A DNA stretch of 64,000 nucleotides from a virus: IMG/VR virus record IMGVR_UViG_3300036770_001342, positions 1 to 64,000 of that record, one strand, 5' to 3'. Below, one piece after another: positions 12,642 to 18,326 of the stretch. Every line of letters starts with the position of its first letter. The stretch's first letter is position 1. Both the position numbers and the translations under genes were made by a program. Under the pieces are notes generated by a model. The model saw nothing but the letters and a program-made list of their open reading frames with translations. It was not told the DNA's origin and did no database searches.

Positions 12642-12974
12642 TTACTGGGTAAGACGCAGAATTAATAGCATTTTTTCGACATAATCGATGGCCTGGGCTA
12701 ATTCTCTACGGGGTTTATCTGCTAGATAGGGCTTGTGTAATTGTCTAGCACGAACCTCAGCACTACCTAACACACCTACAAGTGTCTCGGCGTTTTTGAT
12801 AAGTTTGCGAAGGTCTTTATTATAGTGTAGTTGGCGTGCTTGATAATTGATATCGTCAAGAATCTTGCTTGCCTCAAGGGCTGTTGTGAATTTTATCTCA
12901 CTCAAGTCCCATGTCCTTGCGGATTTTGGTTGCGCTGATTGAATGTATTGCATCGTCAAAAACCTCTTGCTCAA
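12642..12974 (-). CDS. Hypothetical helical protein (true start may be TTG at 12905)
   Basis: ORF track; 5' part overlaps the upstream gene. Confidence 0.6.
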   Translation of the reverse strand: MSKRFLTMQYIQSAQPKSARTWDLSEIKFTTALEASKILDDINYQARQLHYNKDLRKLIKNAETLVGVLGSAEVRARQLHKPYLADKPRRELAQAIDYVEKMLLILRLTQ

Positions 12975-13689
12975 TCTTGTAACCTACATCACGCCCATAT
13001 GTGATGTTCACGATATTTGGAACGACAACGATTTCATATTGACCTTGATACTTTGGATCTAAGTCTCTACGAATATACTCTTTTACCTGTTCAATAGCAA
13101 ATGGGTTTGACCCATTCCAACCTTGGCAATCACGGATCATGATACAGACTTGACCCGTTTTAGCCAAAGCACGTTCAAACAATGCACGATGTCCTGGATG
13201 CCATGGTTGCCAGCGACCCAACATCTGTACTGTTTCTTTCTGCCAATCAAATACAGGTCTGCGTTTATTTTTTAAAATATAATTTGCTACAAAAGGTACC
13301 CAAACTTCAGCATTCTGTTCTGTAATACGGAAATCGTATTCTTTAGGTGGAACAAATAATTTGTTGGTATCTTCAAAACGACCACGTTCTATAGTATCTA
13401 TCCATATGGTCCAATCTGCTTTATAATTATTGCGCATCTCTACTAAAGGAGCAACAAAGTCACAAATAACATAATCACATTCAGACATTTCGGCTAGATC
13501 ATACATTCTATGTGATTGTCTAATTCGACCTTCATGACTAAAATCCCAATCGTTGAATTGCTTACGTATATCATCAGCATTATACCAATCTACAGTTACA
13601 CCTATAATTGATTCTAATTCTTGTTTAAGTTTATTAGCAAAATAAGTCTTACCGCTTCCTGGTAGACCCATAATTAAAATTTTCTTCAT
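12898..13689 (-). CDS. Adenylyl-sulfate kinase-like domain fused to a cytidylyltransferase-like (HxGH) domain
   Basis: GLPGSGKT P-loop, ADDIR..DWDFSHEGRIRQ, CDFVAP; C-terminal GRWQPWHPGH. Confidence 0.8.
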   Translation of the reverse strand: MKKILIMGLPGSGKTYFANKLKQELESIIGVTVDWYNADDIRKQFNDWDFSHEGRIRQSHRMYDLAEMSECDYVICDFVAPLVEMRNNYKADWTIWIDTIERGRFEDTNKLFVPPKEYDFRITEQNAEVWVPFVANYILKNKRRPVFDWQKETVQMLGRWQPWHPGHRALFERALAKTGQVCIMIRDCQGWNGSNPFAIEQVKEYIRRDLDPKYQGQYEIVVVPNIVNITYGRDVGYKIEQEVFDDAIHSISATKIRKDMGLE

Positions 13690-14960
13690 TTAAATTTACC
13701 ATTAGGATTTGCAGTTGGAGGAATACCTGCTCTGCTAGTTTTGAATCCAAACGCTTTAGCATTCTTTACTATACTGTCAGGCTTCACATCTATAGTTAGT
13801 GCAGTTTTGAAACGTGGATCATTTTTTTGTTTTTCGCTTGGAATGTAACCGCTGGCTTCTACCACGCTTCGCTCTTCTATATGAAATACTCTTCTTGCTT
13901 TATCGCTAAGATCACTGGGTTTTATAAGTTTAGCAGGTATTGTTTTTGCTTGTGATTTTATTGCTTTATGTAATCTATGGTTGCCATCAAGTATCCAGTC
14001 TATTTGACCTTGCCCGTCCAACATAACTAAAATAGGAAACTGATTAGATACTGTTACTTGATTGATCCTTTCTATTTCTTCTGGGTTTCCGTCCCAATGA
14101 AGTAGTTTACTCTTCAGATTGTCATTTATCGGAAGATCAATTTGTTTGATATGTTTGGTCAGTTCTAAGATATCCTGCAGTGTAATTTTTTCATTACCGT
14201 CTGACCAACTTGTTTCGGCTCCACCTTCTGCTACACCGTTTGGATCATAATCTTCTAAACTTAATTTTTTACTATGCAGTTCTTGCTTTTTATCCCATAG
14301 TTGTTGTATGTAACCTTGTTTACGTAATGCTTTAAACGCTAGATTTTCAGGCCCAAACTCGCCGGTTTTAGTAAGTCCGGCTTTGCGATATCTTTTTATA
14401 ATGTCTAGAACATTTTCAATATCTTCTAAACTTTCTGATTGTATTGCTAATTCTATTAATTGACCCAATTTTTCATATTTGGCTCTAGTATTAGCCTGAT
14501 CAAAGTTTGCTCTTTTCTTAACTGGAAATTTAATCCAATCTTTATTCAGTAAACTATATTCTCCAAGACTAATATGAGGTTGATTACTATCTTGTACATA
14601 TAATTCTACAGGTACACCATTAACTGTGATATCATGTGATTTGTTATATTCGTTCTTTTTGGCATTAAAGAGTTCTTGATAGACCTCATTATTTGGAAGT
14701 TTGCTAAAATCAACAAGAATGTGTAAATCTAAATCGCTGTGGGGTGTATAACTATATGCTGCATTACTACCACTGATAGTAATATCCTCAACGTTTAGTC
14801 CGGATAAACCTAATTCAGTTATAAAATCTTTTGCTATGATTGCTAGAGCATTGTAAACATCATTATGTAAATCTTGACCGGACCATAATTTAGGGTTTAA
14901 TTCATTATGAAATTTAACCGCGTCAGAAAGTTTAAATGACTCTAATTCTTTAATGTCCAT
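13686..14960 (-). CDS. Pol-beta-superfamily nucleotidyltransferase with an inserted ParB/Srx-like module (start moved to MDIKEL)
   Basis: ISGSNA..SDLDLH, VELYVQD; FPILV..ILDGNHRLHKA; the track's longer N-terminus overlaps the tmRNA 3' hairpin; TATAAATA 5 nt upstream of this ATG. Confidence 0.8.
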   Translation of the reverse strand: MDIKELESFKLSDAVKFHNELNPKLWSGQDLHNDVYNALAIIAKDFITELGLSGLNVEDITISGSNAAYSYTPHSDLDLHILVDFSKLPNNEVYQELFNAKKNEYNKSHDITVNGVPVELYVQDSNQPHISLGEYSLLNKDWIKFPVKKRANFDQANTRAKYEKLGQLIELAIQSESLEDIENVLDIIKRYRKAGLTKTGEFGPENLAFKALRKQGYIQQLWDKKQELHSKKLSLEDYDPNGVAEGGAETSWSDGNEKITLQDILELTKHIKQIDLPINDNLKSKLLHWDGNPEEIERINQVTVSNQFPILVMLDGQGQIDWILDGNHRLHKAIKSQAKTIPAKLIKPSDLSDKARRVFHIEERSVVEASGYIPSEKQKNDPRFKTALTIDVKPDSIVKNAKAFGFKTSRAGIPPTANPNGKFK

Positions 14961-14965
14961 ATGAG

Positions 14966-14973
14966 TATTTATA
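14966..14973 (-). promoter_or_regulatory. T4-type late promoter TATAAATA
   Basis: Exact match directly after the tmRNA 3' hairpin. Confidence 0.75.
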
Positions 14974-14975
14974 GA

Positions 14976-15001
14976 AGAATAGGGACCGAAGTCCCTATTC
15001 T
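14976..15001 (-). terminator. cUUCGg hairpin ending the tmRNA transcript
   Basis: AGAATAGGGAC-TTCG-GTCCCTATTCT, perfect 11-bp stem; weak U tract. Confidence 0.75.
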
Positions 15002-15346
15002 GACTATTGGGTATCAAGGTTGTCAACCCCGGCTTAGCCTCAAGCGGCTAGGCTGTAAACATCATCGTTTGCGGATGTTTGATTTACGCTAATTACGTTA
15101 GTCGTCTTTCGGACTGTCTGCTTGGGTACTACTTGCCCTGTCGAAACTGTTCATCCCCGTTGGATAGCCATCACGTACATTGCTGCAGAGGTGATGGGCG
15201 TTTGGTGGATTACCCCAACCTACTGATCTACTCCATTCACGCTCGGTGTAAAACAGATTGCGTGGTTCATCTTCTAATCTATTGGTGGAGATGGTGGGAT
15301 TCGCACCCACGTCCAGAACATTTTTCTCTTCGCTTCTTACAGTCAT
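15001..15346 (-). ncRNA. ssrA: Circularly permuted (two-piece) tmRNA: acceptor piece ~15346-15283, intervening segment 15282-15159, coding piece 15158-~15001; tag (A)ANDDVYSLAA* at 15072-15040
   Basis: GGGGATG pairs with CATCTCC-A-CCA including G3:U70; T arm GTGGG-TGCGAAT-CCCAC; CAGGGCA/TGTTCTG helix 2; the CCA end precedes the GGGG 5' end; second inter-piece helix TGACTGT/ATAGTCA; TAAATA at 15352-15357. Confidence 0.95.
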
Positions 15347-15361
15347 AAGAATATTTATTAT

Positions 15362-16483
15362 TTAAATTGCACTTATTGGAATATTCTTTTTAATTGTTTG
15401 TAATTTCGTATATGTTTGTATAATTGATTCATCCAATATTATTCCAGTTTCATCATAATGTTTAAAGATTTTTTGTATTATATCCGGAGTATGACGATTT
15501 GAATATACTAGATCATAAAATTTTTCTCTATTATGCAATATTTTCAATGTTAAACTATTGTTATATTTTTTTAAATCGTGCAATGGAGTATCTGTAATTT
15601 TTTTAACTTCAAGGGCTATCATTTCAAATCTTTTTTCAACATCACTAATTTTGTCAAACGAATAATCAAAAATTTCATCATATAATTTAAAACCCATTGA
15701 TTGCAAAATTTTGTGTATTCCCTGACATCCTGCAATCAAAAACGGTTTGCCAACAATAATAGGCATAAATGTTTTTTCTGTAAAGAATGGAAGATTGATG
15801 GTAGATTCTGATACTAATTGAAAAAATGATTCGTAGAACTCTTTAGGCACATAGCATTGATCTTTTACCGTAGTATATCTATTGTCTAATGTTTTAGTCG
15901 CTCCATCATAATACTTAAACTCATATGAATTAGGTATGACTCCGGCGTCATTAGTATTATGCCAAGAATAAGCCGAATAATTCAACAAATCATGTTTACT
16001 TAATGAATCAATTAATAATTTCCTCCACATATGGGGTCTATTGTTAAGATATAAAAAGTGGTATGTGTTTTGATGGTCGTTTAAATTCTGTATTAGTAGT
16101 TTTTTAAGAGTAACATTTCGATATTGTAATTTAACTTCGTCGCATGTCCACCAAAAACTTGCGCCGGCAATACCTGCAGGCCAATTAATTACTTCTACAT
16201 TATCAGGTAATATATCAAAATCATAATCAAATTTTAAAAATTTATCATTTTTTCTAAAATCATATATGCAACCAACTATTATGTAAACTTTTATATTTTT
16301 TGATTTACTTATTTTTAAAATTTCTTCATAGTTGACTATGTTATAGAATTGCCATTCTAAATGACAAAATATTATGATACCTTCATAATCATTATCACGC
16401 AACTTTTGTAAGTCTGCGCTATTAGGAGAATTCCATATATTTGTGGTCCAGTAATTCATATTAAAATTCAAACAATAAATCAC
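15362..16483 (-). CDS. Putative glycosyltransferase-like protein; paralog of 27982..29085
   Basis: FLYLNNRPH..R, LVSES..FFTEKT..PI..KPF, GFKLYDEIFDYSFD. Confidence 0.55.
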   Translation of the reverse strand: MIYCLNFNMNYWTTNIWNSPNSADLQKLRDNDYEGIIIFCHLEWQFYNIVNYEEILKISKSKNIKVYIIVGCIYDFRKNDKFLKFDYDFDILPDNVEVINWPAGIAGASFWWTCDEVKLQYRNVTLKKLLIQNLNDHQNTYHFLYLNNRPHMWRKLLIDSLSKHDLLNYSAYSWHNTNDAGVIPNSYEFKYYDGATKTLDNRYTTVKDQCYVPKEFYESFFQLVSESTINLPFFTEKTFMPIIVGKPFLIAGCQGIHKILQSMGFKLYDEIFDYSFDKISDVEKRFEMIALEVKKITDTPLHDLKKYNNSLTLKILHNREKFYDLVYSNRHTPDIIQKIFKHYDETGIILDESIIQTYTKLQTIKKNIPISAI

Positions 16484-17726
16484 TATTTAAGTAATTACTA
16501 TTATTTTTTCTAAAGACCCAGATTGGTTCAACAAATATACTGTTCTTATCTGCTTCAACAATGGCGTGTGGGCGAGCCTGCATACGCATACCGATCTTAC
16601 CTAGATAATGTGCGTTTGGATATGACAGTATATCATCAACCATATGGTCACATAGATTCAATCGCGTACCTTTAGCAATGCGTGGCTCAATAATATTAAT
16701 CATCATATACGCATTATCAGTTAATGTATCCCATATCATACGATTGACTTTGAAAAAGAAATCATGTTTCCAACTATCAAATGTAGTATATCTACTCCAA
16801 CTTTGATTAGTGCTATTGTTTGCGGCGTAACGTTCTGTCTCGTAGTAAGGGGGACTTGTAAAATAAAAGTCAAAAGTATTTTCAAACTTACTCCAATCAA
16901 CATCTTCGCTAGGAAGATTATAGATTATAACTTTTTTTGTACCTAATACGATAAAATGATCACCTTTATCTTGCAGCACAGCAGTATCACATCCCAATAT
17001 GTTTTCATATTCAAGACATTGGTCTTTATATGTTTCATAAACTTCAGGGTTAGGATCGCACCCTACATATAATTCTGTACCTTTAGTTGCATAAAATCCT
17101 GCCAATCTATCTCCCCAACCGCAACTTGTATCTAATACCTTACGTGCGTTATGCTTTTCGTAAAGTGCTTTTGCAACACTAGGCTTAAATTGCGTTGCTG
17201 TGTAGGTGCCGATACGGAATGCGCTACGAAATGTATTTTGGCATACGTCACTATTACCTAATGTTCCCAAACGCCAAAAATGCCAGTTCATATCATTGAG
17301 TAATGTACGACTATGCCATATATCGTAAGGACTGCTACACAAATTACTACCACACTTCATACGATTTAGTTGTTGGAAATAATTGCTCACACTATTATAT
17401 GTGTGTGATTTGTCAATTACTCCTAGTGGGTTGTCGCTGTATTTGTATTTGTAATCAGCACGTTCATGAACGTTGATGGGATATTTGTATTGATCCAGCA
17501 TACTAGTCTTAACAAAACGTTCAAATAACTTATACATTTCATCGTAACTAATTTCTTTGCTAGGAAATGGTAAATTATTTGATATGATATACTCAGTTAG
17601 ACTTTCTTTGATATCCTTCTTGGGGTATTGCTGTATGAAGGTTCGCCAATCACTGTTGGGAATATGTGGTATTCCGCGACTGTCTTTATGTTTATCAAGG
17701 TAATTTAGGATATTTGGATCTATCAT
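16461..17726 (-). CDS. DNA amino-methyltransferase (m4C/m6A)
   Basis: Motif I VLDTSCGWGDRL, YVGCDPN, motif IV FTSPPYY. Confidence 0.85.
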   Translation of the reverse strand: MIDPNILNYLDKHKDSRGIPHIPNSDWRTFIQQYPKKDIKESLTEYIISNNLPFPSKEISYDEMYKLFERFVKTSMLDQYKYPINVHERADYKYKYSDNPLGVIDKSHTYNSVSNYFQQLNRMKCGSNLCSSPYDIWHSRTLLNDMNWHFWRLGTLGNSDVCQNTFRSAFRIGTYTATQFKPSVAKALYEKHNARKVLDTSCGWGDRLAGFYATKGTELYVGCDPNPEVYETYKDQCLEYENILGCDTAVLQDKGDHFIVLGTKKVIIYNLPSEDVDWSKFENTFDFYFTSPPYYETERYAANNSTNQSWSRYTTFDSWKHDFFFKVNRMIWDTLTDNAYMMINIIEPRIAKGTRLNLCDHMVDDILSYPNAHYLGKIGMRMQARPHAIVEADKNSIFVEPIWVFRKNNSNYLNSDLLFEF

Positions 17727-17732
17727 CAAAAT

Positions 17733-17761
17733 ATGATAACAGTATTTTTGCCTGTTGTCAA
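17733..17761 (-). promoter_or_regulatory. Sigma70 promoter with extended -10 for the DNA MTase
   Basis: TTGACA-17 nt-TATCAT with TG before the -10; predicted +1 falls at the ATG (17726). Confidence 0.8.
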
Positions 17762-17768
17762 TAGAATT

Positions 17769-17935
17769 CGCTTCGGCTTGGATTCGAACCTTGTCCTAGT
17801 CTTGTCGATCTGCACTTCCCACAGTACTGACCGAAGCAGTTTTTCTGGTTTATCTCTAGTGCCTATAGAACACCTTGATCCTCAAACTACGCCATCGCTA
17901 TGCGACAAACACTACTCCAGAAGGTCGTGCGGCTG
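17769..17935 (-). ncRNA. Putative non-coding RNA with a 3' tRNA-like domain lacking a normal anticodon arm
   Basis: Own TATAAATA at 17941-17948; no - strand ORF; GCTTCGG/CCGAAGC stem, GTACT-GTGGGA-AGTGC hairpin, GG-TTCGAAT-CC T loop; upstream TTCTGG/CCAGAA multibranch. Confidence 0.6.
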
Positions 17936-17940
17936 AATGT

Positions 17941-17948
17941 TATTTATA
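17941..17948 (-). promoter_or_regulatory. T4-type late promoter TATAAATA
   Basis: Exact match 3 nt after the speD stop. Confidence 0.75.
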
Positions 17949-17951
17949 CTT

Positions 17952-18326
17952 TTATTCTAAAGGTAGTTCAATAAGTTTGTTTTCACGATCAAGATATTTC
18001 ATTTCAATCTTAACAGGGTGAAATTCACGTAACGCTTCTACAACGTCATATGGGTCAAGTGGGCCGCAAGTATAAACATCTAGTTGGAGCAATGATGGCT
18101 TATCTTCATCCCAAACATGTAGTGCGATATGACTTGTCTCAATGATAGCGACAGCAGTTAGTCCACGATTGCCAACTACATCTAGGTACTTAGCAAAAGG
18201 ACCCATCATGACCTTCATGCCAATCTTATCAATAAGTCTGTTCATCCAATCGATTGCTAGTTGTTCTTCCTTTAGTGGATTACCAACTTCGGCACGAATA
18301 ATCAAGTGTTTATGTACTACAGCCAT
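17952..18326 (-). CDS. speD: S-adenosylmethionine decarboxylase proenzyme
   Basis: HKHLII, GLTAVAIIETSHIALHVW, LDVYTCG (pyruvoyl class). Confidence 0.88.
   Translation of the reverse strand: MAVVHKHLIIRAEVGNPLKEEQLAIDWMNRLIDKIGMKVMMGPFAKYLDVVGNRGLTAVAIIETSHIALHVWDEDKPSLLQLDVYTCGPLDPYDVVEALREFHPVKIEMKYLDRENKLIELPLE

What the first reader, a model, noticed from the sequence alone, without database searches (positions are those of the whole stretch)
17769..17948. Unassigned late ncRNA ending in an anticodon-less tRNA mimic
Seen: a GC-richer ~165-nt non-coding island bounded by a perfect TATAAATA upstream and the next gene's -35 downstream. Its 3' 69 nt (17837-17769) form a 7-bp acceptor-like stem GCTTCGG/CCGAAGC plus G, a D-like arm with a GG-containing loop, and CAAGG-TTCGAAT-CCAAG (canonical T loop, 3 of 5 stem pairs). 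Only 18 poorly pairing nt lie where the anticodon and variable arms belong, and no CCA is encoded. The 5' ~95 nt form a separate multibranch (TTCTGG/CCAGAA enclosing TGTCGC-ATA-GCGATG and GGTGTT/GGCACT). Inference: a bipartite RNA I cannot assign to a known class. It could be a tRNA-elbow decoy for host tRNA-targeting defences, or an RNase P handle that releases the 5' domain. With the tmRNA and NTase within ~4 kb it may belong to an RNA-level anti-defence module. This is my strongest candidate for an undescribed element.
Basis: partly seen in the sequence, partly recalled or inferred. Interest (0 to 1): 0.8.

Follow-up and report, generated by a model that had tools for sequence, protein, structure and literature searches.

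The report
Phage tRNA-shaped RNA behind COG2908 RNA
The island encodes two small phage RNAs in a row, a known but unexplained motif (Rfam COG2908) and a 69-base tRNA-shaped RNA with no anticodon arm; the second belongs to a large, apparently undescribed family that phages place wherever tRNA-cutting enzymes work.

Summary
A TATAAATA box (17948-17941, minus strand) precedes about 180 non-coding bases, and no terminator comes before the next gene's promoter.

The 5' part is not unassignable. 17934-17890 is a full-length Rfam COG2908 motif (67.2 bits, cut-off 58.7). I extend it to a 92-nt RNA with a second domain.

The 3' 69 nt (17837-17769) is a real cloverleaf. Among 44 distinct relatives all four stems show compensatory changes. 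The anticodon arm is replaced by a 4-bp mini-hairpin and no CCA is encoded.

The same module, with different closing stems, also sits inside phage tRNA arrays and in the excised spacer of permuted tmRNA genes. It is therefore an independent tRNA-like RNA gene. It is neither a decaying tRNA nor only a handle for the 5' RNA.

Most likely host tRNA-processing enzymes release it, which also frees the COG2908-family RNA. It probably acts through its conserved tRNA-like body on a tRNA-binding factor. Its function is unproven.

This scan has noted anticodon-less tRNA-shaped phage RNAs on other DNA before, including in tmRNA spacers.

The parts
17941..17948 (-). TATAAATA, a T4-type late promoter box. 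The Rfam motif starts 6 nt after it.
   Evidence: Among 131 homologous loci, 77 have exact TATAAATA and 120 have TAAATA, ending 4-8 nt (mode 6-7) before the motif. A gp55-like ORF is present in the window's own record and in 3 of 4 sister records.
17890..17934 (-). COG2908 RNA motif (Rfam RF02939): P1, P2 and P3 around a junction.
   Evidence: 67.2 bits against a gathering score of 58.7, model positions 1-45 of 45. Pairs in P1 and P2 covary in 115 sequences.
17917..17922 (-). 5' strand of the pseudoknot (UUCUGG), in the apical loop of P2.
   Evidence: The two middle pairs switch together, UA/CG to CG/UA, in 49 of 115 sequences. The helix is 98.3% paired.
17849..17889 (-). Domain 2, not in the Rfam model: helix AUC/GAU closing the hairpin GGUGUU-CUAUA-GGCACU.
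   Evidence: AU<->GC at the closing helix in 6 of 37 sequences. 4 of 6 hairpin pairs show compensatory changes.
17843..17848 (-). 3' strand of the pseudoknot (CCAGAA). This is the 3' edge of the 92-nt core RNA.
17838..17842 (-). Linker AAACU. The predicted RNase P cut lies between 17838 and 17837.
   Evidence: Inference from position. The linker is 4-9 nt in the 37 relatives. In sister phages a real tRNA starts at the equivalent place.
17769..17837 (-). 69-nt tRNA-shaped RNA without an anticodon arm. Acceptor 17837-17831 with 17776-17770; U8 at 17830; D arm 17827-17812; mini-hairpin 17811-17798; AGGA 17797-17794; T arm 17793-17777 (T loop 17788-17782); discriminator G at 17769. No CCA is encoded.
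   Evidence: Compensatory changes occur in 7 of 7 acceptor pairs, 3 of 5 D-stem pairs, 2 of 4 mini-arm pairs and 2 of 5 T-stem pairs. The covariation score is 0.561 against 0.177 in shuffles (0 of 500 reach it).
17733..17761 (-). Sigma-70-like promoter of the next gene (methyltransferase-like, ATG at 17726). It marks the 3' limit of the island.
14949..15405 (-). Permuted (two-piece) tmRNA gene, 2.4 kb downstream. It is context: the cloverleaf family is linked to such genes elsewhere.

Best explanation
The island holds two separately folding RNA genes, read as one transcript from a T4-type late promoter.

Module 1 (17934-17843) is a 92-nt pseudoknotted RNA. Its first 45 nt are the Rfam COG2908 motif.

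Module 2 (17837-17769) belongs to a family of phage tRNA-shaped RNAs in which a 4-bp mini-hairpin replaces the anticodon arm. The family is not in Rfam.

Members of the family lie where the host's tRNA-processing enzymes already act: as slots in tRNA arrays, in the excised spacer of permuted tmRNA genes, or directly behind the COG2908-family RNA.

Proposed mechanism:
1. RNase P cuts at 17838|17837.
2. The 3' side is trimmed, and CCA is perhaps added.
3. This releases a stable RNA of about 69 nt and at the same stroke sets the 3' end of module 1.
4. The cloverleaf cannot decode. Its acceptor sequence is free to vary, while the elbow, the core and the short arm are nearly invariant. It therefore most likely works by binding (titrating, blocking or guiding) a protein that recognises the body of a tRNA.

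Shown here: the fold, the family, the genomic contexts and purifying selection. Inferred: the processing steps and the binding function.
For: Fold. Among 44 distinct sequences the acceptor is 95.8% paired, the D stem 99.1% and the mini arm 97.2%. 14 of 21 pairs show double changes. All shuffled and slid controls fall far below.

Selection. Among the 37 relatives that carry both modules, pairwise identity is:
- 96.5% for the cloverleaf
- 93% for the COG2908 motif
- 71% for domain 2
- about 37% for the flanks.

Independence. The same core appears with unrelated closing stems of 7-17 bp in other settings:
- between tRNA-Leu and tRNA-Arg with 8-nt and 3-nt spacers (L334, L324)
- in other tRNA arrays (L367, L363, L323)
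- inside permuted tmRNA gene calls (L320, L336, L365).

Of 58 distinct elements, 20 follow a COG2908 RNA, 16 lie within 30 nt of a same-strand tRNA, and 12 lie in or against a tmRNA call.

Positional equivalence. In 15 of 135 COG2908-RNA loci a genuine tRNA (Met, Asn or Pro) starts a few nt after the core.

Processing. Permuted pre-tmRNAs are cut by tRNA-processing enzymes (PMC11915505).

Other points. No terminator follows the island. No CCA is encoded, whereas neighbouring phage tRNAs do encode it.
Against: There are no expression or cleavage data, and no cultured phage carries the element.

The T stem is weak: 2 G-C pairs plus two A.A mismatches in this window. The minimum-free-energy fold of the 69 nt is not exceptional (z = -1.3) and prefers another pairing of the T-loop region.

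Near-syntenic sister phages (the L151 type) carry the core RNA and the same downstream gene without the cloverleaf. It is therefore dispensable for module 1.

No partner protein was identified. The neighbouring genes are uninformative.
Confidence: 0.6

Rival explanations
1. Pure processing handle, like a plant mitochondrial t-element or mascRNA. The cloverleaf exists only so that RNase P and a 3' nuclease cut the COG2908-family RNA away from the downstream mRNA. The released tRNA-like piece is waste.
For: It sits 5 nt after the core RNA, and no terminator follows. Real tRNAs occupy the same slot in sister phages. No tRNA gene was found in six partial records of this phage group, about 470 kb in all. 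t-elements are an established precedent (PMC1920247).
Against: The module also occurs inside tRNA arrays and tmRNA spacers, where no handle is needed. Its loops and junctions are nearly invariant, more conserved than the RNA it would serve. Close relatives do without it.
Confidence: 0.15
2. Anti-defence decoy. The cloverleaf soaks up or blocks a host immunity protein that recognises the body of a tRNA. Candidates are a tRNA nuclease or a toxin acting on the acceptor, elbow or variable region. This is a specific version of the best explanation.
For: The elbow and core are invariant while the acceptor varies freely. The RNA lies with phage tRNA and tmRNA genes. Defences that cut tRNAs outside the anticodon loop are known: Septu at the variable loop (PMC13096335) and P2 OLD at the anticodon stem (PMC12445682). 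A 65-nt CDS-less tmRNA of phage DS6A inhibits host tmRNA (PMC11915505).
Against: A late promoter is an odd time to express a counter-defence. No defence or partner gene is linked. The host is unknown. Nothing here tests binding.
Confidence: 0.2
3. Small selfish or mobile RNA cassette. It spreads between RNA-gene loci of phages by recombination at tRNA-like stems and gives the phage no benefit.
For: Presence is patchy among near-syntenic phages. The same core has many different closing stems and lies in several genomic contexts.
Against: Compensatory changes in all four stems and about 96% identity show selection on the folded RNA itself. No transposase, homing endonuclease or target duplication was seen next to it.
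Confidence: 0.08
4. Decaying tRNA pseudogene.
For: The Rfam tRNA model aligns end to end but scores only 12.8 bits. The anticodon arm is missing.
Against: It is the best-conserved segment of the locus. All 58 distinct relatives lack the anticodon arm in the same way, and their stems covary. No bacterial tRNA shares its T loop plus 3' acceptor strand.
Confidence: 0.02

Closest known systems
Rfam RF02939, the COG2908 RNA motif (Weinberg et al. 2017, PMC5737381), classed as cis-regulatory
   Same: 17934-17890 matches the whole 45-nt model above its gathering score, and P1 and P2 covary. In some relatives an LpxH-like (COG2908) gene follows: in L208 it starts about 150 nt downstream.
   Different: Here, and in most of 135 loci, the motif starts at the predicted start site of a late-type promoter. 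It continues into a second domain and a pseudoknot that the model lacks. Unrelated genes, tRNAs or the cloverleaf follow it. It behaves like a stand-alone small RNA rather than a leader tied to one gene family.
Phage T4 species 1 RNA (rnaC), a stable RNA of unknown function at the end of the T4 tRNA cluster
   Same: It is a T4-type phage RNA lying with tRNA genes. Its 3' part has a T arm (CCGGG-UUCGAAU-CCCGG) and a 7-bp acceptor (CGGAACG/CGUUUCG) but no usable anticodon arm. The Rfam tRNA-Sec model gives only 17.5 bits.
   Different: No sequence relation: an nhmmer profile of the family does not hit it, and the T4 region has no COG2908 match. T4 rnaC keeps its 5' extension in the mature RNA and has a long extra arm.
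mascRNA of MALAT1 and plant mitochondrial t-elements (PMC1920247)
   Same: These are tRNA-shaped elements with a poor or missing anticodon arm. They sit next to another transcript, and RNase P and RNase Z use them to make RNA ends.
   Different: They are eukaryotic or organellar. The phage module also occurs on its own in tRNA arrays and tmRNA spacers, and its sequence is far more constrained than a mere cutting signal would need.
CDS-less mini-tmRNA of mycobacteriophage DS6A (as described in PMC11915505)
   Same: It is a phage-encoded, anticodon-less tRNA-like RNA of about 65 nt with a proposed inhibitory role.
   Different: The tmRNA tRNA-like domain has G3:U70 for alanine charging and no D stem. 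The window's element has U3-A70, a 5-bp D stem and a variable acceptor.
Canonical phage tRNA genes
   Same: 7-bp acceptor, U8, a D loop with GG, the T loop UUCGAAU, and the same slots and spacers in tRNA arrays.
   Different: There is no 7-nt anticodon loop and no encoded CCA. Pair 49:63 is non-Watson-Crick in 43 of 44 sequences. The element falls below the tRNA model's threshold and is not called by ARAGORN.

Membership tests
Rfam RF02939 COG2908 RNA | Covariance-model score at or above the gathering score over the full model | tested here: met
   67.2 bits against 58.7, model positions 1-45 of 45.
Rfam RF02939 COG2908 RNA | P1, P2 and P3 helices kept, with covariation | tested here: met
   P1 pairs 2:46 and 3:45 and P2 pair 8:25 change on both sides in 16-50 of 115 sequences. 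P3 is invariant.
Rfam RF02939 COG2908 RNA | Cis-regulatory position upstream of COG2908 (LpxH-like) genes | tested here: not met
   In the window the cloverleaf and then a methyltransferase-like gene follow. Only some relatives precede an LpxH-like gene, for example L208. Others precede tRNAs or unrelated ORFs.
Canonical tRNA (Rfam RF00005) | Score at or above 29 bits, or a call by a tRNA finder | tested here: not met
   12.8 bits. No ARAGORN call. No hit at E<=0.001 in the whole 107-kb record.
Canonical tRNA (Rfam RF00005) | Anticodon arm: a 5-bp stem with a 7-nt loop | tested here: not met
   It is replaced by a 4-bp stem with a bulge and a 5-6-nt loop. The loop varies freely in this phage group.
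Canonical tRNA (Rfam RF00005) | 7-bp acceptor stem, D arm with GG, T loop UUCRANY | tested here: met
tmRNA tRNA-like domain / mini-tmRNA | G3:U70 alanine identity pair and a 3' CCA | tested here: not met
   The window has U3-A70. Position 3:70 is UA, CG or AU across the family. No CCA is encoded. There is no similarity to the window's own tmRNA.
tRNA-like processing element (t-element / mascRNA kind) | A tRNA-shaped fold abutting another transcript's end | tested here: met
   It lies 5 nt after the pseudoknot that closes the core RNA, and no terminator follows.
tRNA-like processing element (t-element / mascRNA kind) | Cleavage by RNase P at the 5' side and by RNase Z or exonucleases at the 3' side | not testable with these tools
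   This needs an in vitro cleavage assay or RNA end mapping.

The most novel reading that the evidence does not exclude
The cloverleaf is a new class of phage effector RNA. It would be a tRNA-body mimic, matured by the host's own tRNA enzymes, that disarms or diverts a tRNA-recognising host factor such as a defence nuclease or toxin. Phages would make it by hiding it in tRNA arrays, in the discarded tmRNA spacer, or behind another small RNA.
Probability: 0.2. Interest if true: 0.85.

Novelty: new variant of a known kind. Interest (0 to 1): 0.62.

Why it matters
Phage tRNA genes are now seen as weapons against tRNA-cutting host immunity. A conserved tRNA look-alike that cannot decode falls outside that picture. 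It recurs in at least 110 uncultured phage loci. It turns up in three different 'processing niches': tRNA arrays, tmRNA spacers and the tail of another small RNA.

The finding gives a concrete, testable candidate for an RNA that works through tRNA shape alone. It gives the spacer of two-piece tmRNA genes a possible use. It also re-reads the orphan Rfam COG2908 motif as the 5' third of a longer, pseudoknotted late phage RNA rather than a gene-specific leader.

Tried and rejected
1. Copy of a host tRNA 3' half, or an attP site. The 19-mer spanning the T loop and 3' acceptor strand hits only 7 coding sequences in 185,579 species genomes, and none is a tRNA.

2. Alternative fold pairing GAUCGA with the T loop UCGAAUC. 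The energy model prefers it. It is rejected because GA becomes UG in several relatives, and because the mini-hairpin covaries instead.

3. Relation to the window's own tmRNA or its spacer. Only chance 7-8-mers are shared.

4. Homology to T4 rnaC or rnaD. The T4 region has no COG2908 hit at E<=10, and the family profile does not hit it.

5. A parent tRNA among 707 phage tRNAs in the fetched loci. The best scores are weak. A 92-nt 'tRNA-Ile(tat)' in L218 shares 6 of 7 acceptor bases and the T-stem 3' strand. This is a lead only.

6. Cultured phages. blastn of the island against 50,697 phage records found nothing.

7. Neighbouring proteins. Only speD has a Pfam domain. The 'NTase' has no Pfam match, and its only PHROG matches are families of unknown function. 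The methyltransferase assignment rests on weak PHROG and tblastn matches.

8. One viral scan used too loose a pattern and returned only chance hits.

9. An 8th acceptor pair, U8:R65, fitted this phage group. The wider family favours the canonical 7-bp acceptor plus T-stem geometry.

Full report
**What is in the window**

On the minus strand the speD gene (AdoMet decarboxylase, Pfam PF02675) ends at 17952. A TATAAATA box follows at 17948-17941. About 180 bases without an ORF come next. Then there is a sigma-70-like promoter, TTGACA-17-TATCAT, at 17761-17733, in front of a methyltransferase-like gene (weak matches).

The island is 49.4% G+C in a 34.7% G+C window. No terminator-like site lies on that strand. 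TATAAATA is rare in the window: 4 copies against about 16 expected, all on the coding strand.

The window is part of a 107-kb viral record judged about 31% complete. That record encodes a distant relative of the T4 late sigma factor gp55 (E 1e-6), and so do 3 of 4 sister records. A T4-type late promoter is therefore a reasonable reading.

**The 5' module is a known motif, and it is longer than the model**

cmscan places a full-length COG2908 motif (RF02939) at 17934-17890, with 67.2 bits against a gathering score of 58.7. Pattern scans of viral and metagenomic contigs gave 135 distinct homologous loci.

In 77 of 131 loci an exact TATAAATA ends 4-8 nt before the first base of the motif. In 120 of 131 the shorter TAAATA does. 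The RNA therefore starts at the predicted transcription start.

Beyond the 45 nt of the Rfam model, all homologues continue into a second domain that ends in GAYRAACC. In the 37 closest relatives its closing helix (AU<->GC) and its hairpin (4 of 6 pairs) show compensatory changes.

The apical loop of P2 pairs with the tail after that domain. UUCUGG:CCAGAA in the window's type switches to UUUCGG:CCGARA in the other type. The two middle pairs change together in 49 of 115 sequences, and the helix is 98.3% paired. With P1 it forms a pseudoknot and sets the 3' edge of a 92-nt core (17934-17843).

What follows the core differs between loci:
- the cloverleaf, in 37 distinct sequences
- a real tRNA a few bases on, in 15 loci (mostly Met-CAT, also Asn and Pro)
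- ORFs of unrelated families or other hairpins, in about 75 loci.

One of those ORFs, in L208, is LpxH-like, which explains the motif's name. The Rfam label 'cis-regulatory' does not fit most loci.

**The 3' module is a real cloverleaf without an anticodon arm**

The Rfam tRNA model aligns to exactly 17837-17769 over its whole length but scores 12.8 bits against a cut-off of 29. ARAGORN calls nothing there. GGTTCGAATCC occurs once in the window, against 0.02 expected.

Within the 37 relatives that carry both modules the element is almost invariant, so covariation was at first only one-sided. Pairwise identity there is 96.5% for the element, 93% for the COG2908 motif, 71% for domain 2 and about 37% for the flanks. 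This already excludes a decaying pseudogene.

Scans with pieces of the element itself then found the same core in many other viral contigs, with different stems. In an alignment of 44 distinct sequences (A4) the results are (one search gives the same on 34 sequences):
- Acceptor stem: all 7 pairs show compensatory changes, 95.8% paired.
- D stem: 3 of 5 pairs, 99.1% paired.
- Mini-hairpin that replaces the anticodon arm: 2 of 4 pairs, 97.2% paired.
- T stem: pair 51:61 switches GC<->CG in 16 sequences. Pair 50:62 is C-G in 16 sequences and non-standard (A.A, as in this window) in 27. Pair 49:63 is non-Watson-Crick in 43 of 44.
- Covariation score: 0.561, against 0.177 in shuffles (0 of 500 reach it) and at most 0.063 in slid controls.

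Invariant positions are C9, G11, U12, the D loop G..GG.A, the junction C-A-G, A-GGAC and the T loop. The acceptor sequence and the discriminator vary freely. No member encodes CCA, although adjacent phage tRNAs do.

An alternative fold that pairs GAUCGA with the T loop is preferred by the energy model. Sequence variation contradicts it.

**Where the family lives**

Of 58 distinct elements:
- 20 follow a COG2908-family RNA
- 16 lie within 30 nt of a tRNA gene on the same strand
- 5 lie inside a permuted tmRNA gene call, that is, in its intervening sequence
- 7 abut a tmRNA call
- 10 are 'other'; at least two of these sit in tRNA arrays (L323, L403) and three have a tmRNA call within 5 kb.

Examples:
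- L334, 1310-1378, lies between tRNA-Leu (1225-1301) and tRNA-Arg (1382-1456).
- L367 and L363 lie in arrays of 15 and 24 tRNAs.
- L320, L336 and L365 lie between ...CCUCCACCA and ...GAUGGGGG of two-piece tmRNA genes, closed there by 14-15-bp stems.

Permuted pre-tmRNAs are cut by tRNA-processing enzymes and the spacer is discarded (PMC11915505). That paper calls a tRNA in such a spacer 'unique', so this cargo seems not to be described. A literature search found no description of the family, and Rfam has no model for it.

In the window's phage group no tRNA gene was found in six partial records, about 470 kb in all. A tmRNA gene lies 1-4 kb downstream of the RNA in several relatives.

**How it most likely works**

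The contexts share one property: RNase P and the 3' tRNA-maturation enzymes act there anyway. I infer that the cloverleaf is released as an RNA of about 69 nt by those enzymes. In the window the cut at 17838|17837 would also separate the 92-nt core RNA from the downstream message. Both steps are inferred.

The element cannot be only a handle, for three reasons. It occurs where no handle is needed. It is more conserved than the RNA it would serve. Near-syntenic phages (the L151 type) lack it.

The acceptor is free while the elbow, core and short arm are fixed. I therefore think it acts by tRNA-body mimicry on a tRNA-binding protein (confidence 0.6 for the overall model).

A decoy for tRNA-targeting immunity is an attractive special case. 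Such defences do cut outside the anticodon loop (PMC13096335; PMC12445682). It is untested, and late expression argues against it (0.2).

**Comparison with known things**

The closest analogue in kind is T4 species 1 RNA (rnaC). It also lies in a tRNA cluster and ends in a T arm plus acceptor. It is not related in sequence.

mascRNA and plant t-elements share the 'tRNA shape as cutting signal' logic. The DS6A mini-tmRNA shares the 'anticodon-less phage tRNA mimic' idea but needs G3:U70, which is absent here.

Earlier notes of this scan report anticodon-less tRNA-shaped RNAs in other phages. These include a cloverleaf in a tmRNA spacer of a marine T4-like phage (e1-5659002), a 68-nt tmRNA spacer that shares words with this element (e1-5786777), and the same 5' RNA in another genome (e1-5952103).

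**Verdict**

The 5' half is a known orphan motif, extended here. The 3' half is a member of a sizeable, apparently undescribed family of tRNA-like phage RNAs. It is a new variant of a known kind, with function open.

Noticed in passing
window 17726-17761 (-): The methyltransferase-like gene appears to be leaderless. Its ATG (17726) lies 7 nt after the -10 hexamer of a near-consensus sigma-70 promoter with an extended TG. Relatives keep the same layout (TATAAT, 6 nt, ATG), for example L001, L018 and L022.
   Followed up: partly
window, whole: TATAAATA is strongly depleted, with 4 copies against about 16 expected. All four are on the coding strand. One (14966-14973) sits at the 3' end of the tmRNA gene, in front of the next ORF.
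   Followed up: no
L316:1909-2047 (-), T4 rnaC: T4 species 1 RNA ends in a canonical T arm (CCGGG-TTCGAAT-CCCGG) and a 7-bp acceptor (CGGAACG/CGTTTCG). T4 rnaD ends in GGCGCACCA. Both are tRNA-like at their 3' ends, and their function is still unknown.
   Followed up: partly
L218 (minus strand, about 2740-2831); also L356 3944-4035 and L343 12027-12123: Phage tRNA arrays hold a recurrent 92-97-nt 'tRNA-Ile(tat)' with a long extra arm. Its acceptor (GCUUCUG) and T-stem 3' strand resemble those of the window's cloverleaf.
   Followed up: no
L363 1412-1485 (-): ARAGORN calls a tRNA with anticodon CTA ('Pyl') in a 24-tRNA phage array. It may be an amber suppressor.
   Followed up: no
G000:C1:80574-80810 (+), outside the window: A 325-aa ORF shows distant similarity (32% over about 80 aa, E 1e-6) to the T4 late sigma factor gp55. 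It is conserved in sister records.
   Followed up: partly
L307 and L262, just 3' of the COG2908-family RNA: A third kind of 3' module: a G+C-rich hairpin (GTCCCGA...TCGGGAC or GCCCAC...GTGGGC, with compensatory differences) and a similar loop. No U-run follows it.
   Followed up: no
window 12898-13689 (-): A 263-aa protein with a P-loop kinase N-terminus (APS-kinase / KTI12-like) and a cytidylyltransferase-like C-terminus, close to the tmRNA gene. It may act on nucleotides or RNA.
   Followed up: no
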